Shown: positions 31,100 through 60,785 of the stretch, piece after piece
Numbering within the stretch: position 1 is the first letter of the stretch
Layout of the letters: the number at the start of each line of letters is the position of its first letter
From: Stylophora pistillata
Taxonomy: Eukaryota
Direction of reading: 5' to 3'
Assembly (NCBI RefSeq): GCF_002571385.2
Contig: NW_019217968.1
Span: forward strand, 160,292-224,291
DNA length: 64,000 nt
Notes under the pieces: generated by a model
Seen by the model: the letters and a program-made list of their open reading frames with translations, nothing else
Told to the model about the DNA's origin: nothing
Database searches by the model: none
Position numbers and translations under genes: made by a program

Positions 31100-31300
31100 C
31101 ATTTAAGATCAGAACGACAGGGACATTCCCCTTCATACTAATAATAGCCTCAATGATTTTATGTTAATTTTTGGAACCAATCAGTACGTGCCGCGCGAGA
31201 AAGCTAACTTGTTTGTCAGGCTTTGTATTACTTATGTTTGACCTATATATAGAATGTCAGGAAAAATTCCCGCAGTGTCATCACTTTCGGTTTCCTTTCA
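31100..31300 (-). promoter_or_regulatory. Putative promoter of D: two kB-like sites, a CCAAT box and an ISRE-like site
   Basis: GGGACATTCCC 31120-31130, CCAATCAG about 31177, GGAAAAATTCCC 31260-31271, ACTTTCGGTTTC 31283-31294. These lie upstream of a conserved minus-strand donor (CAGG|GTAAGG, about 30985). Confidence 0.55.
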
Positions 31301-31581
31301 CCGAATATCACGGTTTTTGCGAGAAGCTTATTTAAACAATGTTTCTTATGGATTTTTCGCTTCCTTAAGGTTTAACGTTTAAACTTTTGACAGATATGGG
31401 TTTTTGAGGTATGAAGAGTTCTGTCAGGCTTAGATGCGCGCGACAGAATTCTCACCAAACGAAAATACTCAATAGCGCTTTATACTAATGACGTCATGAA
31501 ATTTTAGACCCCCCCGCATGACTCAGACAAATAAACGCCCCCATGACCTCCCCCTGAACATTACATGACGCTCTTCCTCAT

Positions 31582-33603
31582 TTAACGCTGCATACGGTGA
31601 ACAAATTCTTTGGCTTTATCGTCAATCTTTCTCCATATTTTATCACCACGGCGACAGGAATCTCCTGAGCCACTGTCGTAGGAATCCAAAGGTACTGTTA
31701 ACCTTGTTGATTGATTTCTTGTAGGGCTCACTTGCTCTCTTGAAGCTTCATTGATTGCGCTTTTTTCATGCTTCGTATCCGAATCTTTATTTATGTGCTT
31801 TGGATCATGGTAAGTAGGTAGACTTCCTGAGGGTTTCCCTGGTTCCATGCTGTTGAGCTCATTCTTCAAATTCTGAAGATCCTCTCCAAGGGTGGTGGCT
31901 CGGTACAACATCTTGCTGAGATGTCGACATGGTTTGGATGAAGGGCCTGATGTCATTGCACATTGCATGTATGCCTGTTCGATCTCTTTTACTGTGTGAT
32001 CAGAATGTGTGGCAAAATACTGCTCCATTTCCTCTCGGTCTTTCACTTCTTTGCTTGGGTTCGTTCTCTTTAATTTCGAAGTAACTGTTAGGATAGGGTG
32101 AGCTGCAGCTGCAGAGATTTTAGCTGCGATGGAGAGCGAATAGTTGCATGGTTTCTCTTTTCTGCTTGGAAGGATGCTTCGATCCCAGCTGACGAAGAAT
32201 TTGTTTCCACCCACATTACCTCCGAAACATTCAAANNNNNNNNNNNNNNNNNNNNNNNNNNNNNNNNNNNNNNNNNNNNNNNNNNNNNNNNNNNNNGGGC
32301 GTGAGCCTTTGACGGGCAACACCAGACAGTCCCTCAGTTTCTCGTACCCTTCTCTTTTGTCGGTCATTTTCAAGACACGCACATCTCCTGGATGGTAACA
32401 CTGGCTTCGCATCACCACAAATTTCTGGCCGGCAGTAAAACTTTCTGTCTTGTCACCTGCGACAGTAGGATTGAAGTAGCACTCACCGTAGTTCAACTTG
32501 TTGAGAGGATCACACACAGCAAACACTTCTCGAGAGTTGGGGACAAGAACTCTTGTGAACGAAGCTCTCTCCATTTCTTCCAGTTCCCACCTCTGTAAAT
32601 GCTGAAGGTGCTTTCTTATGTCATCGTCAATTCCTTTGTCTTGGATTTCCTTCAGAAGATCAAACTTTCCCTTTAACTGCAGGAAATACTCTGAGGTTTT
32701 TCGACATATGCCTTCCAGCAACTCATGGTAGCCATCTTGTAAGGCCTCTAGATTCTGGGCTGACACACCTCGTTCTTCCAGCAACATAATCATCCTAGAG
32801 TTGAGATAACCATTGACGTATGGGCTTGAATAATCCATGACATTGACGAAATTAAGAACCTCGGGCTTTTTCCCATCAGGGTCCCGGAACTTTTGCATTG
32901 AGTTGTGGAACTGCACTTTGACGTCTTTCAGATCTTCTTTAAGAACTAACATGCCCTCGTTTCCTCGGTAGCGTACGTGGACGGCACTAGGCTTGTAGTC
33001 AAGATTTAAGACGTTTTGCACTTCGGAAGCGAATTTTACAGACATGAAACCACATCCATCGGTGAAAGTATACGAGTAGAAAACTCCACCTGTCACATCT
33101 GGTTCGACTTTGTAGTCCCTTTCAGCCAATTTCACAGTTTTGGTTAACGGTGAAAAGAGCATAGCGATTTTCCTGGCCCGCCTTGCTAGGTTTTTCTCAT
33201 CAGAAAAGTCTCCAAACTGTGACAAGAGACCGTGGATTTCTTTATGTGTTGCTGCAATAAAGTAACAAGATTTTTTTCGCAACTGCTCATCTGAGTGGCC
33301 TAAGTAGAGGTATGAACGTTGACGACAAAATATTCCCCTTTCCAAAACGCTTAGGCAGAAGTTATTTGCATCTTCGACAGGCGTGATATTAAAAGTCAGC
33401 TTCATAAGATTTTCGTGAAAGTCAGGCCCATCGCGTTTTCTCAGGTATTCTGTCAGCAGGGTGCTTTTGTGCTTTTCATACTCCACATTAAAGTCATTTT
33501 GACCAGTGCCATGGAACTGAACATGAATTAGGTGGATATCATCCTGGGCAGTCCTTTCTGGCCTATCAACGTCTGATACGTCTATACATAAATGGAAGGC
33601 CAT
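31582..33603 (-). CDS. RdRP paralogue E, predicted inactive (NVGGN); recent tandem duplicate of D
   Basis: ORF nearly identical to D. It contains an N gap (32236-32296) where D and H have only about 3 codons (PHA), so the true length is about 655 aa. Confidence 0.88.
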   Translation of the reverse strand: MAFHLCIDVSDVDRPERTAQDDIHLIHVQFHGTGQNDFNVEYEKHKSTLLTEYLRKRDGPDFHENLMKLTFNITPVEDANNFCLSVLERGIFCRQRSYLYLGHSDEQLRKKSCYFIAATHKEIHGLLSQFGDFSDEKNLARRARKIAMLFSPLTKTVKLAERDYKVEPDVTGGVFYSYTFTDGCGFMSVKFASEVQNVLNLDYKPSAVHVRYRGNEGMLVLKEDLKDVKVQFHNSMQKFRDPDGKKPEVLNFVNVMDYSSPYVNGYLNSRMIMLLEERGVSAQNLEALQDGYHELLEGICRKTSEYFLQLKGKFDLLKEIQDKGIDDDIRKHLQHLQRWELEEMERASFTRVLVPNSREVFAVCDPLNKLNYGECYFNPTVAGDKTESFTAGQKFVVMRSQCYHPGDVRVLKMTDKREGYEKLRDCLVLPVKGSRXXXXXXXXXXXXXXXXXXXXXFECFGGNVGGNKFFVSWDRSILPSRKEKPCNYSLSIAAKISAAAAHPILTVTSKLKRTNPSKEVKDREEMEQYFATHSDHTVKEIEQAYMQCAMTSGPSSKPCRHLSKMLYRATTLGEDLQNLKNELNSMEPGKPSGSLPTYHDPKHINKDSDTKHEKSAINEASREQVSPTRNQSTRLTVPLDSYDSGSGDSCRRGDKIWRKIDDKAKEFVHRMQR

Positions 33604-58464: not shown

Positions 58465-58655
58465 GAAACGACAGGGAAATTCCCCTTCATACTAATAATA
58501 GCCTCAGTGATGTTTTGTAACCTCTTGTAACCAATCAGTACGTGCCGTGCGAGAAGGCTAACTTGTTTGTCAGGCTTTGTATTACTTATGTTTGACCGTC
58601 CTTTAGAATGTCGGGAAAATTCCCGCAGTGTAATCACTTTCGGTTTCCTTTCACC
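58465..58655 (-). promoter_or_regulatory. Putative promoter of H (kB/CCAAT/ISRE module)
   Basis: Palindromic GGGAAATTCCC 58474-58484, GGGAAAATTCCC 58613-58624, ACTTTCGGTTTC 58636-58647. Confidence 0.55.
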
Positions 58656-60639
58656 GACCATCAAGGTTTTACGAGAAGCTTATTTATAAAAATGTTTCTT
58701 ATCGATTCTTTCCTTCCCTTTCGAAGGTTTAACGTTTAAACTTTTGACAGATATGGGTTTTTGAGCTACGAAGAGTTTTGTCAGGTAAAAATGCGCGCGA
58801 TCGAATAGCTGTTAGACAAAGATACTTAATTCTTTAACTACGTTACCTTCTAAAAAAAGGTTTTCTGAGTGGTGATTAACTCTTGGTTTGACATGTGAAA
58901 TCTCTATTTAATTCTTTAATTACATAACTAGTTAATTCTTAAATTACATCACCTTGAAAAAGGGTTTTCTGATTGGTGATCAGCTCTTGTTTTGACATGT
59001 GAAATCTCTCTTTTTCTTACAATTTGTTTTCGGAATTCATTAATTCTGAAGTTCTGTCAGCAACGAAAATGACATTGCACACCTTGCCAAACTGCGTGGC
59101 ACACGTGTTTCAAATTTTTTCTTGCTTCTGTGGTTAAATTGCAACTTGAGTTTAACCTTATTAAAGAGAAATTCCCCGATTTATTCAAATAGAAAAACAT
59201 CTCATAACTTTTGCGTTTCATCGTCAAAAGATGTGAAATACGGTTGTCGCAAGCGTTAAACAGGATGTATGAATCCCACCGAGACTCGAACTAATCAACT
59301 TCCGCTCGCCGAATAGTTATTTTCAGTCTTTAAACGTGCACTTGGCTTTTCGGCTTTCCACGGCGTGAGCGAATATTTTCCAAGAGAGGTATTAGATTCA
59401 TGTCCTCACTGCGTTATTTTTCGCCGTGCAAGGGAGCACTTTACTCCTCTAGGGCCCAGTTCTCACTGAAGATGAGAAGCAGCGGCCTGAAATAACTTGC
59501 ATCTTATTTCGGTTATTATTGGCAAGCTTGAATGAGTGCTAGACAAGAGAAAATAAATTCCTCTTTATGCGCGACTTTGACAAATATTGATCTCAGCAGG
59601 TTGAACTGTCCTGACCCTGCTAGTATGAGCTCATGTTTTATTCTGCGTTTGAGCGAAAGAGACTGAATGTTTACAGACATAATCAGGGTAAAGCGCAAAA
59701 TGTGAGAGGTCCTTTAGTCTTCGAGAAGCCTTCTAACAACCAATTCGGCTGTCTCGTTGATTTTACAACTTTTTAACCGTGATTTTTTTAACAAATAAAC
59801 TTCTCACTTTCCTACCTTGTAACTTTGCTGGTAACTTTTCTCTCTTCTCAACCGATTCTTCAGATGTAATAATCTCGACTCAGTGTCTTTCTGCTAATGA
59901 AAGCGTCATAGCCTGGTTAATAACCTTTGGCTCTGGTACCTCTTGTCCTGAATTTGTACTGATATGACGATGTGTTTGGGAAAGTCCCTTACAACATTTA
60001 GGCAGTCGTGCAGAGCTCCGTTCCTCTTAATTGAAATGTTTCACTGTTTACATGTAGCTGCATGTTGCAGAACCTTTTTTAATGCACTTTTTGTGTTTAT
60101 TTCTTGCTTAATTTCCAAGCTTGCTCATAATTGTGAGTCTCTGAAATACTTTTTCGAGAACAGATCACTGACGTCAATTTAGAAGTTCAATTTCCCGGAA
60201 ATACCGCAATCAGATACACAAATTTCTGAGAATCTCAGTTGGTCATGGGAGTAGTTCAGAAAAATATCATTAATTACCTACAGATGTCTAAACTAATTTC
60301 AGCAAAGAAGAATCATCTACAAATTGAAAATTTCCCACTCTCAACCTCCACATCTGTCTCATCTTTCGTCGCTTACCGTTTAGATTTTTTTTAACAAATC
60401 CAATCGCCCTCTTATTGCGTTGTATTATCGCTATTTCTTTTCAAATGCCAGGTCAGGCAGGTTGTTTTCTCAGAAATTTACACTCGTCTTTTACAAATTT
60501 GGAATTTCTTAGAATCTCCCTGAAGCTTTAATCGATCGTAACGTTTGCCTTTATTGTGAATATATTTCAAAGGCTCCAAGAGGTCACAATATGGGCCCTC
60601 TGCCAAAGATAAGAAAAGTATGTTTAAGTAATGGTTAAT

Positions 60640-60785
60640 TGTAGTCTGGGGATTCCCCCAAGTTTTGGTTTCGGTTTCTGTCCACTTCAAACAAACAAAC
60701 TGGTTCACTACGTCAGTGTAGTTCGCTGCATTCTACCGATGACGGAAACAAGATATGTAAAGAGGACGTCAGATTGAAGGTATGT
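60640..60785 (+). promoter_or_regulatory. Putative promoter and non-coding first exon of I
   Basis: kB-like GGGGATTCCCC 60648-60658 adjacent to ISRE-like AGTTTTGGTTTCGGTTTC 60661-60678. The exon ends GAGGACGTCAGATTGAAG|GTATGT. Confidence 0.55.

What the first reader, a model, noticed from the sequence alone, without database searches (positions are those of the whole stretch)
31100..60785. NF-kB and IRF/ISRE-like motif modules upstream of the pseudo-RdRP genes
Seen: kB-like sites (GGGACATTCCC 31120 and 34338, GGGAAATTCCC 58474, GGGAAAATTCCC 58613, GGGGATTCCCC 60648) and ISRE-like (A/G)(C/G)TTTCGGTTTC sites (31283, 36639, 58636, 60667) sit within about 300 bp of putative first exons on both strands. 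There is also GAAAGTGAAACT at 11066-11077 in the 5' region of A and ACTTTCACTTTT at 24137 upstream of C. Established: GGGRNNYYCC and GAAANNGAAA are the NF-kB and IRF consensus sites, and cnidarians have both factor families. Inference: the array behaves like an interferon-stimulated-gene locus, linking RNAi components to innate nucleic-acid sensing. The D/E/H copies are not independent evidence because they arose by duplication.
Basis: partly seen in the sequence, partly recalled or inferred. Interest (0 to 1): 0.75.

Follow-up and report, generated by a model that had tools for sequence, protein, structure and literature searches.

The report
Immune promoters on dead coral RdRPs
A stony coral carries a tandem array of RNA-copying-enzyme (RdRP) genes, most lacking the catalytic motif, whose first exons sit beside NF-kB-, IRF- and STAT-type DNA sites that are denser than at control genes and recur in other corals, so these predicted non-enzymes are likely switched on by antiviral signalling.

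Summary
Largely confirmed. 10 of the 11 listed sites are present as written; 24137 is misread and lies in an intron. Spliced transcript contigs put first exons 55-217 bases from the H, I and F sites. They also show a second, distal first exon for E and H, each with an unlisted kB site 105-134 bases upstream. STAT-type (GAS) sites, also unlisted, are the best-conserved elements. The signal survives de-duplication at promoters (kB 3 vs 0.5, ISRE 3 vs 0.2 in shuffles), is absent from 40 Ras-gene controls, and recurs upstream of homologues in other corals (kB, GAS; ISRE not significant). Seven of nine window genes, and 120 of 120 listed homologues of H, lack DxDGD; the pairs tested show purifying selection. 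Induction was not testable. RdRP induction by dsRNA and cGAMP is already published for Nematostella, where NF-kB, IRF and STAT knockdowns showed no dependence. Likely real immune promoters of a known type. The unreported part is that they sit on an amplified pseudo-enzyme clade.

The parts
31120..31130 (.). kB consensus site, D proximal promoter
   Evidence: homologous to 34338 and 58474
31260..31294 (-). D module: kB-like site 31260-31271 plus ISRE 31283-31294
   Evidence: D first exon (from 30986 upward) inferred from homology to H only
34338..34348 (.). kB consensus site, E proximal promoter
34472..34506 (-). E module: kB-like site 34472-34483; ISRE copy at 34495 broken by a one-base deletion
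   Evidence: alignment
35565..35614 (-). E distal first exon (at least this long)
   Evidence: spliced contig in run X8, canonical GT-AG
   Evidence: consensus kept in E, H and J copies
35924..35932 (.). GAS/STAT-type site, E distal
   Evidence: kept in 3 of 3 copies; overlaps a 10-base invariant run
36448..36456 (.). GAS/STAT-type site in the shared E-F region
   Evidence: 13-base invariant run, the longest in the three-way alignment
36626..36650 (+). F module: decayed kB 36626-36637 plus ISRE 36639-36650
   Evidence: aligned to the I and K promoters
36759..37108 (+). F first exon (5' end at or before 36759); kB-like site at 37147 in intron 1
   Evidence: spliced contig in X8
58338..58419 (-). 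H proximal first exon (at least this long)
   Evidence: spliced contig in X2, GT-AG
58474..58484 (.). kB site, H proximal, 55 bases from the contig end
58613..58647 (-). H module: kB-like site 58613-58624 plus ISRE 58636-58647
59816..59845 (-). H distal first exon (at least this long)
   Evidence: spliced contig in X4/X5, which look like one data set
60192..60200 (.). GAS/STAT-type site, H distal
60467..60475 (.). GAS/STAT-type site in the shared H-I region
60648..60678 (+). I module: kB 60648-60658 directly followed by tandem IRF half-sites 60661-60678
   Evidence: one of only two places in the genome matching a tight kB-ISRE pattern
60737..60779 (+). I first exon (5' end at or before 60737)
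   Evidence: spliced contig in X1
11066..11077 (+). ISRE consensus in the 5' region of A; distance to the start site unknown
11420..11441 (-). GAS plus ETS element upstream of A, conserved in other corals
   Evidence: BLAST and alignment to L027, L028, L029, L030
26781..26900 (-). C first exon; no strict kB, ISRE or GAS within 400 bases upstream
   Evidence: X8 and X2
8126..9910 (-). A: RdRP-domain frame with DLDGD (downstream exons not mapped)
15039..16793 (-). B: RdRP-domain frame with DLDGD
21065..22975 (-). C: pseudo-RdRP (DLSGK)
28379..30382 (-). D: pseudo-RdRP (NVGGN)
31582..33648 (-). E: pseudo-RdRP (NVGGN); 61-base assembly gap
37722..39812 (+). F: diverged pseudo-RdRP, catalytic loop replaced
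44340..45678 (-). G: broken RdRP-like gene (RLGGD)
55561..57690 (-). H: pseudo-RdRP (NVGGN); coding exon begins at 57595
61711..63687 (+). I: pseudo-RdRP, catalytic loop shortened

Best explanation
The modules lie at the first exons of coral RdRP-family genes that lack the catalytic motif, and they likely work as immune-inducible promoters bound by NF-kB, IRF and STAT-type factors, so that sensing of viral RNA or cyclic dinucleotides would switch on proteins predicted to act without polymerase activity. Shown: the sites, their closeness to spliced first exons, two alternative first exons for H, the head-to-head layout repeated three times, enrichment over controls, retention of kB and GAS sites while flanks diverge, recurrence in other corals, loss of DxDGD with open frames and dN/dS below 1. 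Inferred: factor binding; that the 4-kb E-F and H-I spacers co-regulate both genes of a pair; induction through RLR or cGLR-STING signalling; and the role of the proteins, most likely RNA-binding antiviral effectors or decoys/partners for the intact neighbours A and B.
For: Position: 5 of 6 RNA-defined first exons have a strict kB or ISRE within 220 bases. The two distal exons came from RNA, not from motifs, and both have a kB site.

Density per 10 kb (kB/ISRE/GAS): window 3.3/2.1/5.0, other corals 2.7/1.4/5.5, 40 Ras-family upstream regions 0.26/0.06/1.2. Two site classes within 300 bases: 4 of 7, 4 of 14, 0 of 40. After de-duplication the shuffles are beaten: window kB 5/300, ISRE 1/300, GAS 10/300; other corals kB 1/300, GAS 1/300. 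HSE, AP-1 and ETS are not clearly enriched (0.4, 0.8, 0.4 vs 0.3, 1.2, 0.5 per 10 kb).

Footprint: with 53% of columns invariant, the two longest invariant runs are the GAS sites, and the distal kB changes only in its central positions. The sites are not in repeats seen in 1.0 Mb of genome.

Factors and controls: five IRF domains and one Rel-homology gene are encoded. IRF upstream regions are kB-rich (5 vs 0.5 expected). The only other tight kB-ISRE match precedes a ubiquitin-IBR gene.

Homologues: a Nematostella protein groups with A/B (support 99), and a gene of the same RefSeq name is induced by cGAMP at log2FC 6.4. Three Nematostella RdRPs rise 3.8-4.8 log2 with poly(I:C).
Against: No induction or binding data for these genes. 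In Nematostella that RdRP gene is absent from the NF-kB, STAT and STING knockdown lists, single IRF knockdowns had no effect, and the antiviral genes examined were NF-kB independent. The induced homologue is of the intact A/B type, linked by name only, not a pseudo-RdRP. The ISRE is broken in E and lost in K, F's kB has decayed, and C has no strict site. ISRE excess in other corals is one homologous site and not significant (41/300). Twenty GBP-like upstream regions, an expected positive control, were not enriched for kB or ISRE. Genome-wide the strict ISRE is rarer than its reversed control (291 vs 548), and 40 sampled sites had no more partner sites or clearly immune neighbours than 40 controls. 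STAT was not detected in two family searches (inconclusive). One D-type contig continues at the acceptor into 27 letters not found in the locus. The Ras controls are anchored on coding starts, not start sites.
Confidence: 0.62

Rival explanations
1. The sites are functional but serve a general NF-kB/STAT stress or antibacterial response (heat, bacteria, wounding), not nucleic-acid sensing in particular.
For: kB and GAS are the better-conserved classes and the ISRE turns over. Nematostella NF-kB was needed for antibacterial, not antiviral, genes. A review reports kB enrichment at heat-induced anemone genes, and one coral RdRP rose under heat while another fell.
Against: Strict ISREs sit next to kB in two of three promoter lineages and an ISRE-kB-IRF-like series recurs in other corals. 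Heat-shock and AP-1 elements are not enriched.
Confidence: 0.15
2. The modules set constitutive expression in IRF-positive coral immune cells rather than inducible expression.
For: Several genes are covered by spliced contigs in all laid runs, whose treatments are unknown. Coral immune cell populations expressing IRFs and ISG homologues are described.
Against: Contig depth cannot give expression level. Clustered kB and GAS sites are typical of signal-induced genes (established knowledge). Anemone RdRPs are strongly induced.
Confidence: 0.15
3. The pattern is chance matches multiplied by tandem duplication and has no function.
For: All sites reduce to three promoter lineages; whole-window kB excess vanishes after collapsing copies (P=0.23); the strict ISRE pattern was chosen after the fact; most genome-wide matches look inert.
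Against: Out-of-sample support from the distal exons, from upstream regions of other corals that BLAST does not align to the D-I promoters, and from selective retention among diverged copies.
Confidence: 0.08

Closest known systems
Nematostella poly(I:C)- and cGAMP-induced genes, including RdRP1-3 (PMC8476169; PMC8713801)
   Same: RdRP-family genes in a hexacorallian; STAT, IRF, NF-kB and ETS motifs are reported enriched near poly(I:C)-induced genes; the A/B-type homologue is probably the cGAMP-induced Rdrp1 (name match).
   Different: The anemone A/B-type protein keeps DLDGD. Here the strongest modules lie on a tandem array of DxDGD-less paralogues in head-to-head pairs with alternative first exons. 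No site-level promoter description was seen in the passages read.
Vertebrate interferon-stimulated and virus-induced promoters (ISRE, GAS, kB; the IRF-plus-kB arrangement of the IFN-beta enhancer is recalled, not from a call)
   Same: Same three consensus classes within about 350 bases of first exons; IRF half-site runs 2-11 bases from a kB site in D, H and I.
   Different: Anemones lack type I interferon (PMC8713801); binding by coral IRF or STAT is untested; knockdowns in the anemone showed no dependence.
Eukaryotic RNAi RdRPs (Pfam PF05183) and animal RdRPs of unclear function (PMC6396948)
   Same: Clear PF05183 match for A-D and F-I; animal RdRPs that do not seem to amplify RNAi are known from Branchiostoma and Nematostella.
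   Different: C-I lack DxDGD, as do 120 of 120 listed homologues of H; the GxKG lysine is E in 108 of 120 (its NTP-binding role is recalled).

Membership tests
Immune-inducible (ISG-like) promoter | Consensus kB, ISRE or GAS sites present | tested here: met
   10 of 11 listed sites plus unlisted kB and GAS sites
Immune-inducible (ISG-like) promoter | Sites close to the transcription start | tested here: inconclusive
   55-217 bases from ends of spliced first-exon contigs for 5 of 6 exons; contigs cannot show starts; D/E proximal exons not seen directly
Immune-inducible (ISG-like) promoter | Density above background and above control genes | tested here: met
   whole-window kB not significant after collapsing copies
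Immune-inducible (ISG-like) promoter | Sites conserved beyond their flanks | tested here: met
   GAS and distal kB kept in 3 of 3 copies; plus-strand kB and ISRE in 2 of 3; recurrence in other corals
Immune-inducible (ISG-like) promoter | Cognate factors encoded in the genome | tested here: inconclusive
   IRF (5 matches) and Rel homology domain found; STAT searches empty and uninformative
Immune-inducible (ISG-like) promoter | Induced by dsRNA, cGAMP or virus | not testable with these tools
   Only contigs without treatment labels; coral cGAMP tables not readable; anemone homologues induced
Immune-inducible (ISG-like) promoter | Induction depends on the sites and on NF-kB, IRF or STAT | not testable with these tools
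   Anemone knockdowns showed no dependence for antiviral genes
Vertebrate interferon-stimulated gene in the strict sense | Induced by interferon through its receptor and JAK-STAT | not testable with these tools
   PMC8713801 states that anemones lack type I interferon; not filed as a member
Active eukaryotic RdRP | PF05183 domain | tested here: met
   A, B, C, D, F, G, H, I match at E from 1e-98 to 2e-25; E is 92% identical to D
Active eukaryotic RdRP | Catalytic DxDGD motif | tested here: not met
   Present in A and B only; absent in C-I and K and in 120 of 120 listed homologues of H

The most novel reading that the evidence does not exclude
Hexacorallians have turned the RNAi polymerase into an amplified family of catalytically dead, virus-induced effectors or decoys. 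In stony corals these sit in head-to-head pairs driven by shared NF-kB/IRF/STAT control regions, so the RdRP fold works in an interferon-like programme without making RNA. That would explain why cnidarian RdRPs are induced although no secondary siRNAs are found.
Probability: 0.3. Interest if true: 0.8.

Novelty: new variant of a known kind. Interest (0 to 1): 0.55.

Why it matters
Two questions are open in print: what animal RdRPs do when they do not amplify RNAi (PMC6396948, PMC12768352), and whether IRF and STAT drive the interferon-free antiviral programme of cnidarians (PMC8713801). This locus gives handles on both. It offers compact native promoters (31 bases of kB plus IRF sites at I; a 4-kb two-way spacer at H-I) with natural variants that have lost single sites (E, F, K), and a conserved clade of RdRP-fold proteins predicted to be unable to polymerise. 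The general link between RdRP genes and nucleic-acid sensing is already known, which caps the surprise.

Tried and rejected
1. 24137 as an IRF site upstream of C: misread and intronic.
2. Whole-window kB count as evidence: not significant after collapsing copies.
3. Lone strict ISRE as a marker of immune genes: 40 of the first 100 listed sites (of 291) vs 40 of the first 100 reversed-pattern sites (of 548) gave partner sites 5 vs 3 (P=0.36) and no clear difference in Pfam neighbours.
4. GBP-like upstream regions as a positive control: not enriched; several share paralogous DNA and some are probably not GBPs.
5. STAT gene search with two Pfam models: nothing, uninformative.
6. Repeat or transposon origin of the modules: no overlap with repeats in 1.0 Mb of sampled genome.
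7. Heat-shock or AP-1 promoters: not enriched.
8. Contig depth as expression level, and runs X21-X24 with next to no words: not used.
9. dN/dS rows with E: frame slip in my script, dropped.
10. Coral cGAMP expression tables: the Cell 2023 paper is not held, the preprint passages found show no RNA-seq, and the re-analysis archive of PMC13319465 is too large to read. These tables could confirm or refute induction directly.
11. Three look-ups in earlier scan findings returned nothing.
No structure or complex prediction was run.
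Full report
Setting. The window lies on contig C185 of a 397.6-Mb genome. Named relatives of its proteins come from stony corals (Oculina, Orbicella, Desmophyllum), so I treat it as a scleractinian and did not identify the assembly. Nine RdRP-family genes lie in the window (A-I) and two more just beyond it (J, broken, and K). A and B keep DLDGD; C-I and K do not. None of the 120 listed homologues of H (of 180 found) has DxDGD. 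Crude Nei-Gojobori dN/dS is 0.51 (D-H), 0.25 (C-H), 0.41 (F-K) and 0.18 (A-B), with E rows dropped for a frame slip. These are therefore maintained pseudo-enzymes, not decaying pseudogenes. Exaiptasia and Actinostola also have DxDGD-less proteins, listed with the same longest-contig length as an intact one.

Observation. Ten of eleven listed sites are as written. Position 24137 has one T fewer than stated and no IRF core.

First exons. Contigs from five runs were laid on 21001-41000 and 44100-64000. X4 and X5 look like one data set; X1, X2 and X8 are only guessed to be RNA, but all six joints used have canonical GT-AG ends. H has two alternative first exons (donors at 58338 and 59816), E a distal one (35565), I one ending at 60779, F one ending at 37108, C one starting from 26781. 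Distances from contig ends: H proximal kB 55, ISRE 217; H distal kB 134, GAS 347; E distal kB 105, GAS 310; F ISRE 109, GAS 303; I ISRE 59, kB 80, GAS 223 and 262; C none within 400 bases. Contigs cannot show start sites. D and E proximal exons were not seen directly, and one D-type contig runs into 27 letters not found in the locus.

Independence. E-F, H-I and J-K are three copies of one head-to-head unit, and the F, I and K first exons and promoters align. All modules reduce to three lineages: D/E/H proximal, E/H/J distal, F/I/K. In the three-way alignment 403 of 762 ungapped columns are invariant. The two longest invariant runs (13 and 10 bases) are GAS sites; six spaced positions are all invariant in only 3-4% of places; the distal kB keeps its consensus in 3 of 3 copies with changes only in the middle. 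The plus-strand kB and the ISRE survive in 2 of 3, and three other GAS matches are in 2, 1 and 1 of 3 copies.

Chance. Genome counts are 291 (strict ISRE), 6,242 (general ISRE) and 17,581 strand hits (kB). Window: strict ISRE 4 vs 0.046 expected (2 after collapsing, P=0.001, pattern post hoc); general ISRE 6 vs 1.0 (4 collapsed, P=0.019); kB 7 sites vs 2.4 (4 collapsed, P=0.23). Upstream regions, as counts of kB/ISRE/GAS: window 8/5/12 in 24.0 kb; 40 Ras-family genes 4/1/19 in 154 kb; 5 IRF genes 5/1/4 in 18.9 kb; 20 GBP-like genes 4/1/16 in 75 kb. In non-redundant window DNA (16 kb) dinucleotide shuffles reach the observed count in 5, 1 and 10 of 300 trials. HSE, AP-1 and ETS are not clearly enriched; CRE and octamer are at most about twice the control rate on 3 and 5 sites. 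The modules do not overlap repeats found in 1.0 Mb of the genome.

Other corals. A metagenome scan gave 32 loci. I used 14: 10 had under 300 bases upstream, 5 were near-duplicates and 3 were distant. They hold 6/3/12 sites in 21.9 kb, and 4 of 14 have two classes within 300 bases against 0 of 40 controls. In six non-redundant regions kB (4 vs 0.58) and GAS (7 vs 1.66) beat 299 of 300 shuffles; ISRE (1 vs 0.14) does not. BLAST does not align these regions to the D-I promoters, yet three of them share an ISRE followed by a kB-like site with an IRF-like run beside it. A GAS-plus-ETS element at 11420-11441 upstream of A is conserved upstream of the A homologue in L027, where a pseudo-RdRP also precedes an A-type gene.

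Vocabulary in this genome. Five IRF domains and one Rel-homology gene are present; STAT searches were uninformative. A tight kB-ISRE pattern matches only two places: gene I and the upstream region of a ubiquitin-IBR gene on C17. Lone ISRE matches are not informative: 40 sampled sites had no strict kB within 300 bases, partner sites in 5 vs 3 of 40 controls, and no clear excess of immune neighbours. The GBP control did not show enrichment. The argument therefore rests on clustering at first exons, not on single sites.

Literature (what I saw). PMC8476169 (passages, supplement rows): poly(I:C) induces RdRP1-3, log2FC 3.8-4.8, and STAT, IRF, NF-kB and ETS motifs are enriched near induced genes. 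PMC8713801 (passages, section 6, supplement rows and sheet list): cGAMP induces Rdrp1, log2FC 6.4 in polyps and 4.3 in embryos; the gene is absent from the NF-kB, STAT and STING knockdown sheets; IRF and STAT knockdowns had no effect and antiviral genes were NF-kB independent. Nematostella P0140 groups with A/B at support 99 in a quick tree and has the same RefSeq name as that gene; the link is by name only. PMC12768352 (passages): no secondary siRNAs although three of four RdRPs are induced. PMC6396948 (passages): animal RdRPs may act outside RNAi. PMC13319465, PMC12530282 with its preprint, PMC13042239 and PMC9980059: passages only. Nine full-text searches showed no paper on a DxDGD-less coral RdRP array or its promoters; subscription papers and unreadable supplements may hold such data. 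That GGGRNWYYCC, GAAANYGAAASY and TTCYNRGAA are the kB, ISRE and GAS consensus is recalled knowledge; the review says DNA-binding specificity is similar among non-bilaterian NF-kB proteins.

Mechanism. Most likely (0.62), viral RNA or cyclic dinucleotide signalling activates NF-kB, IRF and STAT-type factors. These would bind the proximal and distal modules, with each 4-kb spacer serving both genes of a head-to-head pair, and raise RdRP-fold proteins predicted to be unable to polymerise. Those would act by binding RNA or as decoys or partners for A and B. Anatomy, enrichment and conservation are shown; binding, induction and protein role are inferred. Rivals: general stress or antibacterial NF-kB/STAT control (0.15), constitutive immune-cell expression (0.15), chance plus duplication (0.08).

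Verdict. A real feature of a known kind of promoter, on an unusual target. Not filed as interferon-stimulated genes in the strict sense, nor C-I as active RdRPs. Novelty: new variant of a known kind. Interest 0.55.

Noticed in passing
L001:5270-10000 and L002:1-665 (G000:C185, just beyond the window end): A third head-to-head unit: broken D/E/H-like gene J and intact-frame F-like gene K, with homologous kB and GAS sites but a lost ISRE.
   Followed up: yes
L016:2295-7550 (G000:C17 near 75503): Ubiquitin-like plus IBR (RBR-ligase-like) gene with tandem ISREs, kB sites and a GAS upstream; the only other tight kB-ISRE match in the genome.
   Followed up: partly
L127:3915-4869 (G000:C19 near 1165409): Compact GAS-ISRE-kB cluster about 100 bases before a frame with a weak PNP_UDP_1 match (E=5e-4).
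   Followed up: partly
L130:3890-7376 (G000:C26 near 430842): GAS-kB-ISRE cluster beside tandem related frames with no Pfam match; a second strict ISRE is listed 2 kb away.
   Followed up: no
window 48199-52251: Transposon-type frames (DDE transposase, Ulp1-like protease, YqaJ-like nuclease) upstream of broken gene G; flanks at 45536-46318 and 52276-52445 are adjacent in a homologous stretch beyond the window, suggesting a 6-kb insertion.
   Followed up: partly
window 52753-54600: Copy of C's first exon and promoter (26089-27400) behind H, with overlapping kB-like and GAS sites at 54334 and an ISRE match at 54414; possibly G's promoter. Low-depth contigs cover 53923-54293.
   Followed up: partly
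L005:6329-9307 (G000:C213): Single-exon RdRP with DLDGD fused to a weak TLDc match, a distinct RdRP type.
   Followed up: partly
P0146, P0150 vs P0143, P0142: Sea anemones (Exaiptasia, Actinostola) also have DxDGD-less RdRPs next in accession or contig length to intact ones; they form their own clade and a shared origin with the coral clade is unresolved.
   Followed up: partly
window 57756-57924, 10195-10360, 42251-42405, 44215-44315: A short high-copy interspersed element; one copy lies in H's first intron.
   Followed up: no
L002:3231-3917: NLR-like frame (weak NLRC4 HD2 match) next to the array, with a kB-like site nearby at about L002:3131.
   Followed up: no
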